Source: a candidate division WOR-3 bacterium
GTDB lineage: Bacteria > Hydrothermota > UBA3073 > JACQXS01 > JAGMCI01
Length of the DNA stretch: 64,000 nt
Direction of reading: 5' to 3'
Assembly: GCA_023129325.1 (NCBI GenBank)
Contig: JAGMCI010000021.1
Coordinates: forward strand, 3,712 to 67,711
A program made the position numbers and the translations under genes. Positions 49,662 through 51,173 of the stretch are shown here, one piece after another. The stretch's first letter is position 1. Every line of letters starts with the position of its first letter. The notes beneath the pieces were generated by a model. The model saw only the letters and a program-made list of their open reading frames with translations. It searched no databases and was not told where the DNA came from.

Positions 49662-51173
49662 ATGAAAGAACTATTAAATCAGAGTATCTCTAAAATTCAT
49701 CTTAAGCTTAAAGAAAGAGAAAGAGCCTGCCTTGAACTTATTGAGTTTATGTTTGAAAAAATAAATAAGAGTTCATTAAATTCTTATATTACCACATTTG
49801 AATCTCAGGCTAAGGCTCGGGCTATGGAGATTGATAAAAAAGGGGATTTTAATAATCTTTTAACTGGAATCCCGATTGCCATTAAAGATAATATATGTAT
49901 AAAGGGCTTCCCAACGACTTGTGGTTCCCGGATACTCAAAGACTTTATTCCTCCTTATAATGCCACAGTAATAGACAAATTAGATAAGGCAGGTGCTATA
50001 TTTTTAGGCAAGACAAATCTTGATGAATTTGCTATGGGCTCTTCAACTGAGAATTCAGCCTTTGGTCCTACATTTAATCCATTAAATCCAGAATATGTTC
50101 CTGGCGGCTCATCTGGTGGGTCTGCAGCAAGTGTTGGCGGTGGTGAGACGATTTGTGCTCTTGGCTCAGATACAGGAGGCTCAATCAGACAGCCAGCATC
50201 ATTTTGTGGAATTGTGGGCTTAAAACCGAGTTATGGTAGGGTCTCAAGGTATGGGCTCGTTGCTTTTGCATCATCTCTTGACCAAATAGGAGTATTAACA
50301 AGATGTGTAGAGGATGCGGCAATCTTACTTGAAACCATTGCAGGTCAAGATGACAGAGATTCTACTTCCAGAAATGTTTCAGTTCCTTTTTACTTTAAAA
50401 ATCTTGAACCTAAAGTAAAGGGTTTAAAAATTGGGCTTCCAGAGGAATATTTTGGTGAAGGGATAGCTCCTGAAGTTAAAGAAAGGGTATTAAATGCAGT
50501 TCATACATTGGAAAAACTTGGTGCCAAGCTTTGTGAAGTTTCCTTACCTCACACTGATTATGCTATTTCAACTTATTATCTAATTGCCACTGCTGAAACA
50601 AGTGCCAACCTGGCAAGGTATGATGGAGTTAGATATGGGTATAGAAGTAGGAAGTGGGAAGTAGGAAGTGGGAAGTGGGAAGTAGGAAGTGGGAAGTCAG
50701 AAGTCAGAGGTCAGAAGTCAGGGGTCAGAGGCCAGAAGTCAGAAGTTAGGAGTCAGAAATTAAAAGATATGTATGAAATAACGAGGGATGAAGGGTTTGG
50801 CAATGAAGTTAAGCGTCGGATAATGCTTGGCACTTTTGGGCTTCAGTCTGGATACTATGATGAATATTATCTTAAAGCAAGGAAAGTGAGAGGTCTTATA
50901 GCTGAGGATTTTGAAAACGCTTTTAAGGAAGTAGATATTTTAATCACTCCCACATCTCCAACGCTTCCGTTTAAATTAGGTGAAAAAACAAAAGACCCGC
51001 TTCAAATGTATCTATCTGACATTCTTACAGTTTCTGCCAGTCTTGCTGGGTTGCCAGCTATCTCTATTCCCTGTGGTGATTTCTCTGGTCTTTCAATAGG
51101 TTTACAAATAATTGGCAAGCCATTTGACGAGCAAACCATCCTCAACACTGCTTATGCTTATGAAAGAGCCTAA
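49662..51173 (+). CDS. gatA: Glutamyl/aspartyl-tRNA amidotransferase subunit A, with an in-frame heptamer-repeat insert
   Basis: Amidase signature [11 protein letters not shown]...[24 protein letters not shown] ... [22 protein letters not shown] flank an extra ~33-aa (≈99-nt) insert. Start set to MKELLNQ (49662), directly after the promoter. Confidence 0.95.
   Translation: [503 protein letters not shown]
50647..50758. repeat. 16 tandem degenerate heptamers (GTRGGAA x7, then GTCAGRR-like x9) inside gatA
   Basis: Read directly: GTAGGAA GTGGGAA GTAGGAA GTGGGAA GTGGGAA GTAGGAA GTGGGAA GTCAGAA GTCAGAG GTCAGAA GTCAGGG GTCAGAG GCCAGAA GTCAGAA GTTAGGA GTCAGAA. Confidence 0.95.

What the first reader, a model, noticed from the sequence alone, without database searches (positions are those of the whole stretch)
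50647..50758. A 16-unit degenerate heptanucleotide tract translated inside gatA
Sixteen head-to-tail 7-nt units (GTRGGAA x7, then GTCAGRR-like x9) sit between the conserved GatA segments [12 protein letters not shown] and [22 protein letters not shown]. Bacterial GatA normally has only about 8-10 residues at this position. Because 7 is not a multiple of 3, the tract is read in all three phases. This produces a 7-aa periodic peptide: [35 protein letters not shown]. The CAGAAGT/CAGAGGT unit is the same 'word' that builds the arms of the intergenic MITE-like elements (38685-38710, 48668-48700, 35068-35090). An intergenic repeat array has therefore apparently invaded or expanded within an essential translation gene. 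Gain or loss of one or two units would frameshift gatA, giving contingency-locus-like geometry, although the degeneracy of the units should damp slippage.
Basis: partly seen in the sequence, partly recalled or inferred. Interest (0 to 1): 0.8.

Follow-up and report, generated by a model that had tools for sequence, protein, structure and literature searches.

The report
Translated 7-base repeat inside gatA
A housekeeping translation enzyme gene (gatA) of an uncultured WOR-3 bacterium carries a real, in-frame run of sixteen 7-base repeats that adds a floppy ~32-residue loop, and related bacteria carry 7-base repeats of other sequences at exactly the same spot, so this is a long-lived repeat hotspot in a tolerant loop, not a one-off invasion or an on/off switch.

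Summary
Window 50647-50758 is a 16-unit period-7 array (GTRGGAA x7, GTCAGRR x9), in frame in gatA (49659-51173). It encodes a 7-aa-periodic peptide in a loop that is about 32 aa longer than in typical GatA. The insert is modelled as disordered (pLDDT <50) and the catalytic residues are intact. A second GenBank assembly record has the identical tract.

The interpretation needs revising. GatA genes of at least seven other lineages (58-77% identical) carry period-7 arrays at the same nucleotide position, but with different units: CAGAAGA, CAGAAGT, GCAAAAT, CCGAWAA, AAGGCGA, NAAAART. Only 1 of 58 other GatA loci does. In 123 kb from this clade, all seven in-ORF period-7 tracts lie in gatA or gatB. 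The most recent visible event here is a perfect 21-nt (3-unit, 7-codon) duplication.

The best reading is a heptanucleotide VNTR that keeps its position while its sequence turns over, surviving only in 21-nt steps. The genome background is rich in period-7 repeats. The CAGARGT word is shared with intergenic hairpin elements, but the tract has no inverted repeat and no RNA fold, so it is not a MITE. With perfect period-7 runs of at most 20 nt, it is not a credible contingency locus. It is a new variant of a known kind, of moderate interest.

The parts
49659..51173 (+). gatA coding sequence (503 aa from the ATG at 49659; the mechanical ORF starts at a GTG at 49554). It encodes the amidase subunit of Asp/Glu-tRNA amidotransferase.
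   Evidence: ORF list. 100% identity to NCBI MCK4352857.1, GatA of a candidate division WOR-3 bacterium. PDB GatA hits at E = 2e-165 (3h0l). The invariant alignment columns K75, S150 and S174 are the positions I take, from my own knowledge, to be the amidase-signature catalytic residues.
50647..50758 (+). The heptanucleotide array: 16 head-to-tail 7-nt units, read in all three codon phases. With its edges it encodes [37 protein letters not shown].
   Evidence: TRF period 7, 16.6 copies. Unit parsing and translation. Only the frame in use is free of stops; the other two + frames and all three - frames contain stops.
50647..50695 (+). Block A: GTRGGAA x7 (equivalently RGGAAGT), encoding KWEVGSG repeats. 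There is no tandem copy elsewhere in the window.
50650..50697 (+). Perfect 21-nt x ~2.3 tandem duplication (three units, seven codons) inside block A. It is the most recent visible event and preserves the frame.
   Evidence: Longest perfect period-21 run: 27 matches, 50650-50697. TRF period 21, 92% matches.
50696..50758 (+). Block B: GTCAGRR-like x9 (equivalently CAGARGT), encoding [14 protein letters not shown]. It uses the same unit family as the arms of intergenic elements E1-E3.
50640..50648 (+). Native codons TAT-AGA-AGT (Y-R-S), which already spell one repeat unit (tAGAAGT). Arrays begin at these conserved GatA codons, at or within a few nucleotides after them, in the window and in all array-bearing relatives.
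   Evidence: Side-by-side DNA of the window, L001, L002, L003, L204, L209 and L210.
48588..48722 (.). Intergenic element E3. It has terminal CCACAGA...TCTGTGG, arms built of heptamers (ACAGARA on one arm, the complement of CAGARGT on the other) and a central hairpin TCCGCCTTAGGCGGA. It shares a 17-nt word with the gatA tract.
   Evidence: Sequence. RNA fold -48.3 kcal/mol, z = -6.8. 17-mer identity.
38660..38772 (.). Intergenic element E2: the same family as E3 in the opposite orientation.
   Evidence: Sequence. Fold z = -7.6.
34988..35128 (.). Intergenic element E1: the same family without the GC-rich central hairpin. It lies between divergent genes.
   Evidence: Sequence. Fold z = -5.2. ORF map.

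Best explanation
The tract is a heptanucleotide simple-sequence repeat (a small VNTR) embedded in frame in a disordered, length-tolerant loop of a functional GatA.

Proposed mechanism:
1. This bacterium and its relatives generate and keep period-7 tandem repeats far more than any other period.
2. Arrays arise and change by slipped-strand mispairing, seeded on the purine-rich native sequence at the Y-R-S codons (TAT AGA AGT ... TTAAAAGA).
3. Because the unit is 7 nt, only changes of three units (21 nt = 7 codons) keep GatA in frame, so selection passes only those. Stop-creating unit variants are tolerated only in phases where they are not read.
4. Over time the units turn over (concerted evolution). 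The array therefore stays at one position across lineages while its sequence and copy number differ.
5. The product is a charged Lys/Glu/Arg/Ser/Gly-rich floppy loop that is probably neutral for catalysis.

Shown: the array, its frame, the disorder prediction, the positional recurrence, the clade-wide period-7 excess and the 21-nt duplication. Inferred: slippage as the mechanism, unit turnover from an ancestral array, and neutrality.
For: Array, frame and stop pattern.

The insert lies between Aquifex GatA residues 329 and 332. This is where GatA length varies naturally: 30-33 aa is usual, with values up to 74.

The AlphaFold model has mean pLDDT 84, but residues 334-363 are below 50 and have no secondary structure. 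K75, S150 and S174 are invariant alignment columns.

Period-7 arrays occupy the same site in other lineages:
- L003: AATGCAA x4.4, perfect.
- L002: GCAAAAT/GCAAAGT x4.
- L001: CAGAAGT x4.7.
- L204: CCGAAAA CCGATAA, twice. Its 83%-identical sister L205 has a single AAAACCGACAT, which looks like an unexpanded site.
- L209: CAGAAGA x4 plus CAGAAGT; L210: AAGGCGA x4-5. Both were predicted from the peptide and then confirmed in the DNA.
- L053 (Patescibacteria): NAAAART x5.
- Control: 1 of 58 other GatA loci shows a period-7 signal.

Period-7 tract density per 100 kb is 6.2 in the window, 28.6 in clade loci and 1.3 in 925 kb of other loci. Other periods are near 0.

Of 97 ORFs in 123 kb, all 7 in-ORF period-7 tracts are in gatA (5 of 9 genes) or gatB.

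There is a perfect 21-nt duplication at 50650-50697, and deleting 21 nt keeps the frame.

An unrelated BioA carries a CAGARGT array that is exactly a 7-aa insertion relative to PDB 3dod.

An excess of heptanucleotide SSRs in prokaryotes, and the slippage proposal, are described in PMC4679880 and PMC4692102.
Against: - There are no population or read data, so slippage and 21-nt-step polymorphism are inferred, not observed. The two available assembly records are identical in length.
- Block A (RGGAAGT) is not a simple copy of the native tAGAAGT.
- The two-block structure and the 17-nt identity of block B to an intergenic element arm could reflect recombination with such an element rather than pure local slippage.
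- The concentration of in-ORF arrays in gatA could reflect selection for a long loop rather than tolerance.
- Several independent origins versus one ancestral array were not resolved by a tree-aware reconstruction.
- Solvent exposure in the GatCAB complex was not measured.
Confidence: 0.68

Rival explanations
1. In-frame insertion, or recombinational import, of one arm of the intergenic heptamer-armed hairpin elements (E1-E3). This would resemble Rickettsia palindromic elements: selfish DNA that survives inside genes where the loop tolerates it.
For: - The unit family is the same, and there is a 17-nt identity to the E3 arm.
- In relatives the same GatA site holds clearly foreign pieces. L206 has a GC-rich hairpin flanked by 10-nt direct repeats; its core recurs in the window at 4565-4589 and, in frame, twice inside apgM. 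L207 has a similar hairpin with direct repeats. L001 has about 100 nt of hairpin-rich sequence after its CAGAAGT units.
- In-frame RPE insertions are documented (PMC10969869).
Against: - The window tract has no CCACAGA terminal repeat, no central hairpin and no complementary arm, and it does not fold (z = +0.31).
- A complementary arm could not be translated, because ACTTCTG arrays give TGA.
- Block A has no counterpart in any element in the window.
- Once two arrays use the same two unit variants, a 17-nt match is weak evidence of transfer.
- The L204/L205 pair shows local expansion of native sequence.
- No Y1/RAYT-type transposase gene is present in the window.
Confidence: 0.17
2. A contingency (phase-variable) locus. 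Slippage by one or two units switches GatA off and on, or creates subpopulations with altered translation fidelity.
For: The unit length is not divisible by 3. Deleting 7 or 14 nt truncates the protein at residue 358-365 of 503. Heptanucleotide and other SSRs do drive phase variation in some pathogens (background in PMC4692102 and PMC12721329).
Against: - The units are degenerate, and the longest perfect period-7 run is 20 nt.
- The only perfect longer repeat has a 21-nt period, which preserves the frame.
- The gene is a core housekeeping enzyme, and the array lies mid-gene in a loop.
- Two assembly records agree.
- Every relative's array is also in frame.
Confidence: 0.04
3. The long charged loop is a selected functional addition to GatA in this clade (for example a docking or tethering arm in the transamidosome, or a solubility or thermal adaptation). 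The heptamer repeat is merely the cheapest way to build it.
For: In-ORF arrays are strikingly concentrated at this one site: 5 of 9 gatA genes, against 0 of about 85 other genes in the same loci. The site carries an insert of some kind in most clade members. Repeat-built disordered regions with proposed functions are known from Borg elements (PMC9879509).
Against: - The peptide sequence is not conserved between lineages ([35 protein letters not shown]).
- Lengths range from 4 to 43 extra residues.
- Two clade members (L004, L205) have the baseline length.
- Model confidence is below 50 throughout the insert.
Confidence: 0.09
4. Assembly artefact: a short-read assembler mis-built a repeat.
For: The source is a metagenome-assembled genome. 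Copy number within the perfect 21-nt x2 segment cannot be checked without reads.
Against: - The units are degenerate and uniquely ordered, and at 112 nt the tract would fit within one typical short read (my own reasoning; read length was not checked).
- The ORF is intact.
- A second assembly record is identical over 21.6 kb apart from one mismatch.
- Arrays sit at the same site in independent assemblies of at least seven other organisms.
Confidence: 0.02

Closest known systems
Long simple-sequence repeats with 7-nt units in prokaryotes. These include the heptanucleotide excess reported in 2007 by the group whose later paper is cited as Guo and Mrazek 2008 (PMC4679880; ref. 33 in PMC4692102), cyanobacterial STRR heptamers, GGGAATC in Xanthomonas/Nostoc, and TAACTGA in Beggiatoaceae.
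   Same: The period is the same. The arrays are genome-wide and mostly intergenic, often as inverted pairs that can form hairpins. Slippage is the proposed mechanism.
   Different: [quoted passage not shown] Here a 16-unit array is translated inside a core enzyme, and the same codon position carries period-7 arrays of different sequence across lineages. The host taxon (WOR-3 and relatives) and the unit sequences differ; no paper in the searched library contains a tandem pair of the CAGAAGT unit.
Rickettsia palindromic elements (RPEs): in-frame MITE insertions in protein-coding genes.
   Same: Repetitive DNA that is otherwise intergenic is found in frame in housekeeping genes, at positions compatible with the fold (PMC10969869).
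   Different: RPEs are palindromic elements of about 150 bp with a conserved full-length sequence and encoded peptide. The gatA tract is a one-stranded tandem array with no palindrome. The REP-like hairpins in apgM of this window, and in GatA of L206, are the closer RPE analogues.
Tandem repeats in Borg elements that create intrinsically disordered regions.
   Same: Tandem nucleotide repeats inside ORFs create new disordered, charged segments. Homologous proteins carry repeats at corresponding places (PMC9879509).
   Different: [quoted passage not shown] Here the unit is 7 nt, so it is read in three phases, the effective coding period is 21 nt, and the units are degenerate.
Contingency loci (phase-variable SSRs) of host-adapted pathogens.
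   Same: An SSR with a unit not divisible by three lies inside a coding sequence, so a one-unit change shifts the frame.
   Different: Contingency loci have long perfect tracts, lie in dispensable surface or restriction-modification genes (usually near the 5' end), and are polymorphic. None of these features is seen here.

Membership tests
GatA (amidase-signature subunit of GatCAB) | Full-length similarity to the Amidase family and to solved GatA structures | tested here: met
   PF01425 is precomputed on all close homologues. PDB GatA hits: 3h0l at E = 2.4e-165 and 2df4 at 1.6e-151, covering residues 6-332 and 367-502.
GatA (amidase-signature subunit of GatCAB) | Catalytic Lys/cis-Ser/Ser residues and the Gly/Ser-rich signature retained | tested here: met
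   K75, S150, S174 and the GGSSGGS block are invariant columns in a 42-sequence alignment that includes this protein. Assigning these columns to the catalytic residues rests on my own knowledge.
GatA (amidase-signature subunit of GatCAB) | Partner genes gatB and gatC present; GlnRS/AsnRS absent (which would make the enzyme essential) | not testable with these tools
   tblastn finds no gatB or gatC in the 64-kb window. Relatives have gatC-gatA-gatB together. The rest of the genome is not available.
Prokaryotic heptanucleotide long SSR | Head-to-tail tandem copies of a 7-nt unit, beyond chance | tested here: met
   TRF gives 16.6 copies. Shuffles give no tracts at period 7, and period 7 (with its double, 14) is the only period from 4 to 14 that scores at the 80% threshold.
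Prokaryotic heptanucleotide long SSR | Part of a genome-wide excess of 7-nt arrays | tested here: met
   6.2 tracts per 100 kb in the window and 28.6 in clade loci, against 1.3 in 925 kb of other GatA loci.
Contingency (phase-variable) locus | Long perfect or near-perfect repeat tract | tested here: not met
   The longest perfect period-7 run is 20 nt, under 3 units.
Contingency (phase-variable) locus | Length polymorphism between cells or strains that switches the frame | tested here: inconclusive
   Two assembly records are identical in length. No read-level data are available.
Contingency (phase-variable) locus | Located in a dispensable surface, restriction-modification or virulence gene, or its promoter | tested here: not met
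   The host gene is gatA, and the array lies at codons ~331-367 of 503.
MITE / RPE-like in-frame mobile element | Terminal inverted repeats or overall palindromic structure | tested here: not met
   There is no inverted arm, and the fold has z = +0.31 against -5.2 to -7.6 for E1-E3.
MITE / RPE-like in-frame mobile element | Full-length copies of the same element elsewhere in the genome | tested here: not met
   Only a 17-nt word is shared with E3. Block A has no tandem copy elsewhere in the window.
MITE / RPE-like in-frame mobile element | Target-site duplication at the borders | tested here: not met
   The borders grade into native codons (tAGAAGT on the 5' side, CAGAAAT-TAAAAGA on the 3' side). 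No flanking direct repeat is present, unlike the L206 and L207 inserts.

The most novel reading that the evidence does not exclude
WOR-3-like bacteria may possess a sequence-directed process that writes period-7 arrays. It could be an unrecognised enzyme, or a mobile element that leaves 7-bp footprints. It would favour particular purine-rich units (CAGAAGT, GGGAAGT, GCAAAAT) and repeatedly target the TAY-AGR-AGT motif of gatA. The GatA hotspot, the heptamer-armed intergenic hairpins and the in-frame arrays in other enzymes (BioA, AsnB, a Ser/Thr kinase, GatB) would then all be products of one new mutagenic or mobile system rather than of generic polymerase slippage.
Probability: 0.12. Interest if true: 0.8.

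Novelty: new variant of a known kind. Interest (0 to 1): 0.5.

Why it matters
Repeats whose unit is not a multiple of three are normally purged from coding DNA. Here such a repeat persists in a core translation enzyme, at one codon position, across many lineages, while its sequence turns over.

That makes the GatA loop a natural reporter for how heptanucleotide repeats are born, spread and filtered by the reading frame. The visible events are 21-nt steps. It bears on the observation that 7-nt repeats are the commonest long SSR class in many prokaryotes, for which only a slippage proposal is on record (PMC4679880).

It also shows, together with the REP-like hairpins found in frame in apgM and in a relative's GatA, that these candidate-phylum genomes build new disordered protein segments from intergenic-type repeats.

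Practically, it warns annotators and aligners that such inserts in MAG proteins can be real.

Tried and rejected
- The scan of GTDB species representatives (genome contigs) with this GatA found no close relative; the best hit was 65% identical. Those loci served only as a negative control.
- tblastn with the Y1/RAYT-type transposase that sits next to gatA in L002 found nothing in the window. No element-mobilising enzyme can therefore be tied to the repeats.
- tblastn for gatB and gatC found nothing in the window, so operon context and essentiality could not be assessed.
- Rfam at gathering thresholds found only a tmRNA and a tRNA. No known RNA family covers the tract or the hairpin elements.
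- A literature search for tandem CAGAAGT strings returned no paper. A WOR-3 plus repeat search returned nothing relevant. Lin and Kussell 2012 does not discuss heptamers.
- My first pattern for the GC-rich hairpin used the wrong spacing and found nothing. The corrected pattern found two copies.
- A G-quadruplex reading of block A (four GGG runs) was considered. It was not pursued because two of the loops are 11 nt long and no test was available.
- RNA pairing of the tract with the complementary arm of E3 was rejected. E3 lies 2 kb upstream between two minus-strand genes, so it is not on the gatA transcript.
Only pLDDT and natural length variability support the 'tolerant loop' reading.
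Full report
**What is there.**
The window is 36.5% G+C. Its gatA product is 100% identical to NCBI MCK4352857.1, annotated as GatA of a candidate division WOR-3 bacterium on a 95.7-kb contig.

Tandem Repeats Finder reports a period-7 array of 16.6 copies at 50643-50758 and a period-21 sub-array at 50644-50704. 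Read from 50647, the units are GTRGGAA x7 (50647-50695) and then GTCAGRR-like x9 (50696-50758).

The array is in frame in gatA (ATG at 49659, stop at 51173). It encodes [37 protein letters not shown] between the conserved segments [12 protein letters not shown] and [14 protein letters not shown].

Only the frame in use is open. The other two plus-strand frames and all three minus-strand frames contain stops.

Period 7 is the only period from 4 to 13 that yields tandem tracts in this window at an 80% threshold (period 14, its double, also scores). At a looser threshold one period-8 tract appears, and composition-matched shuffles give essentially none.

**The protein.**
Solved GatA structures align to residues 6-332 and 367-502. 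About 34 residues are unmatched, between Aquifex GatA residues 329 and 332.

In 120 homologues, and in 58 GatA genes from GTDB species representatives, the ARYDG...GFG segment is nearly always 30-33 residues. Here it is 63.

An AlphaFold model built on a 42-sequence alignment has mean pLDDT 84 and pTM 0.85. Residues 334-363 are below pLDDT 50 and have no secondary structure. K75, S150, S174 and the Gly/Ser signature are invariant alignment columns; I take these, from my own knowledge, to be the amidase-signature catalytic residues.

The gene therefore looks functional, and the tract adds a disordered polyampholyte loop.

A second GenBank assembly record (GCA_030643605.1) matches 21,620 nt of the window with one mismatch and no gap, including the tract. 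This argues against an assembly accident. It also shows no length polymorphism between these two records.

**The key new result: the same site carries period-7 arrays in other lineages.**
I fetched the DNA of relatives. In each, the array begins at the Y-R-S (TAY-AGR-AGT) codons, or within a few nucleotides after them.

| Locus | Protein identity to window GatA | Array at the site |
|---|---|---|
| L003 | 77% outside the insert | AATGCAA x4.4, perfect |
| L002 | 77% outside the insert | GCAAAAT GTAAAAT GCAAAGT GCAAAGT |
| L209 | 66% | CAGAAGA x4 plus CAGAAGT |
| L210 | 60% | AAGGCGA x4-5 |
| L001 | 60% | CAGAAGT x4.7, then ~100 nt of hairpin-rich in-frame sequence |
| L204 | 60% | CCGAAAA CCGATAA, twice |
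| L053 (Patescibacteria) | 50% | NAAAART x5 |

- The L209 and L210 arrays were predicted from the peptides QKTEDRRQK and KSERRKAKG before the DNA was read.
- L205 is 83% identical to the L001 protein and has the baseline length, with a single AAAACCGACAT. This looks like the unexpanded state of the L204 array.
- Among 58 other GatA loci, only L053 shows a period-7 signal.
- L206 and L207 carry a GC-rich hairpin flanked by direct repeats of about 10-11 nt at the same site instead.

It is met, in a way that reframes the finding rather than dismissing it.

**Genome background.**
Period-7 tracts occur at 6.2 per 100 kb in the window, 28.6 in eight clade loci and 1.3 in 925 kb of other GatA loci. 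Other periods are near zero.

Most tracts are intergenic and paired with an inverted copy. Elements E1-E3 (34988-35128, 38660-38772, 48588-48722) have CCACAGA...TCTGTGG ends and heptamer-built arms, and they fold with z-scores of -5.2 to -7.6. Other spacers carry hairpins with different 7- or 8-nt units.

Of 97 ORFs of at least 120 aa in 123 kb (window plus eight clade loci), seven in-ORF period-7 tracts were found. Five are in the nine gatA genes, all at this site. Two are in one gatB, where they correspond to 8-aa and 6-aa insertions. None is in the other ~85 genes.

The GatA loop is thus a genuine hotspot.

**Relation to the intergenic elements.**
The CAGARGT word, and a 17-nt string, are shared with an arm of E3. 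However:
- The tract has no terminal repeat, no central hairpin and no complementary arm.
- It does not fold (z = +0.31).
- Block A has no tandem copy elsewhere in the window.
- A complementary ACTTCTG arm could not be translated, because it gives TGA.

'Expanded in place' is therefore better supported than 'invaded'. Recombination with an element arm cannot be excluded for block B.

**How the array evolves.**
The longest perfect period-7 run is 20 nt. The longest perfect repeat of all is a 21-nt tandem duplication at 50650-50697, which is three units or seven codons (KWEVGSG twice). Deleting 7 or 14 nt truncates GatA near residue 358-365; deleting 21 nt preserves it.

This fits a VNTR whose raw step is 7 nt but whose surviving step is 21 nt.

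Position is conserved while unit sequence is not (CAGAAGT, CAGAAGA, GCAAAAT, CCGAWAA, AAGGCGA). That pattern is what concerted evolution of an old array would give. Several independent births on the purine-rich native sequence are the alternative, and I could not separate the two.

**Generality.**
A metagenome scan for three CAGARGT units hit its 120-contig limit, with G+C from 0.33 to 0.68. Many hits lie in frame in recognisable proteins (identified by eye from conserved motifs, except BioA, which was checked against PDB): a Ser/Thr kinase, BioA, an apparent HemD, an apparent NRPS-type linker and an apparent RecG. In BioA the array is exactly a 7-residue insertion relative to B. subtilis BioA, PDB 3dod.

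A search of 1.84 billion representative proteins with the 37-aa peptide gave 152 hits at E <= 0.001. Most are short ORFs, which I suspect are gene calls across intergenic arrays. The hits also include a protein that looks like asparagine synthase (by its N-terminal motif) with two such inserts, and proteins with KWEVGSG repeats.

Translated purine-rich heptamer arrays are therefore rare but widespread.

**Comparison with what is known.**
- *Heptanucleotide SSRs.* They are the most abundant long SSR class in many prokaryotes, are mostly intergenic, often occur as inverted pairs, and polymerase slippage has been proposed as their source (PMC4679880, PMC4692102). The genome-level phenomenon is thus a known kind.
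- *RPEs.* In-frame survival of intergenic-type repeats in housekeeping genes is known for Rickettsia palindromic elements (PMC10969869).
- *Borg repeats.* Repeat-built disordered regions are known from Borg elements, where all in-ORF units are divisible by three (PMC9879509).
- *What I did not find described.* A long non-triplet array translated in three phases inside a core enzyme, occupying one conserved codon position across lineages with changing units. No paper in the searched library contains a tandem pair of the CAGAAGT unit.

**Verdict.**
- The best explanation is a frame-filtered heptanucleotide VNTR in a tolerant, disordered GatA loop, in a clade with a strong period-7 repeat bias (confidence about 0.68).
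- The rivals are import from a hairpin element (0.17), a selected functional loop (0.09), a contingency locus (0.04) and an artefact (0.02).
- It is a new variant of a known kind, with interest about 0.5.

Noticed in passing
window 63181-63208 and 63560-63586 (inside ORF 62364-63725, minus strand); window 4565-4589; L206 1130-1177: A REP-like GC-rich hairpin (CCCTGCCCGACGGAYGGCAGGCGGG) occurs once in intergenic DNA and twice, in opposite orientations, in frame inside an archaeal-type phosphoglycerate mutase gene (apgM). There it coincides with insertions relative to P. horikoshii ApgM (PDB 2zkt). The same element is in frame at the GatA hotspot of relative L206 (peptide SLPDGRQAGA, against SLPDGQQAGA in ApgM). 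This is an RPE-like phenomenon.
   Followed up: partly
window 34988-35128, 38660-38772, 48588-48722: A MITE-like family of about 110-140 nt with CCACAGA...TCTGTGG ends and arms made of degenerate heptamers. Two of the three copies have a central TCCGCCTWAGGCGGA hairpin. E2 is E3 in inverted orientation. They fold strongly (z = -5.2 to -7.6) and match no Rfam family.
   Followed up: partly
window 42198-42290, 43357-43455, 44313-44434, 61437-61493, 4364-4472: Several consecutive intergenic spacers hold imperfect inverted repeats or tandem arrays whose arms are 7- or 8-nt tandem repeats, with a different unit sequence in each spacer. This suggests local generation rather than one transposing family. 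On RNA folding, the one at 43350-43460 is modestly stable (z = -2.75) and the one at 42195-42295 is not (z = +0.64). Function is unknown.
   Followed up: partly
window 47929-48040: A perfect 56-bp x2 tandem duplication spans the 3' end of a metH-like gene (45651-47987; S-methyl_trans, Pterin_bind and B12-binding domains). The duplication shifts the frame so that the protein ends ...KEIKNL instead of ...KEIKNLIET. It is also present in the second assembly record.
   Followed up: yes
L207 2444-2482 and 3186-3226 (gatB): In one relative, gatB carries two in-frame period-7 tracts (AATCACC-like and AAAGTTA-like). They correspond to 8-aa and 6-aa insertions relative to two other GatB proteins.
   Followed up: yes
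window 49470-49660 and 51112-52824: Here gatA is not next to gatC or gatB, whereas relatives have gatC-gatA(-gatB). It follows a divergently oriented metallo-beta-lactamase-fold gene and is followed by, and slightly overlaps, a MutL-family gene (PF13941). No gatB or gatC lies anywhere in the 64 kb.
   Followed up: partly
window 33521-33897 and 63859-63931: A tmRNA gene (Rfam RF00023, 165 bits) and a tRNA gene are the only Rfam matches at gathering score.
   Followed up: no
L002 2104-2541: An IS200/RAYT-type Y1 transposase gene (PF01797) lies about 600 nt downstream of gatA in the closest relative. No homologue is present in the window.
   Followed up: partly
P0184 (719 aa), L092, L089, L088, L165, L121 (metagenome contigs): CAGARGT arrays are translated (peptide SEVRSQK) inside other core enzymes of unrelated uncultured organisms: an apparent asparagine synthase (two arrays), BioA (exactly +7 aa against PDB 3dod), a Ser/Thr kinase, an apparent NRPS-type linker, an apparent HemD and an apparent RecG. 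Apart from BioA, these identities are read by eye from conserved motifs.
   Followed up: partly
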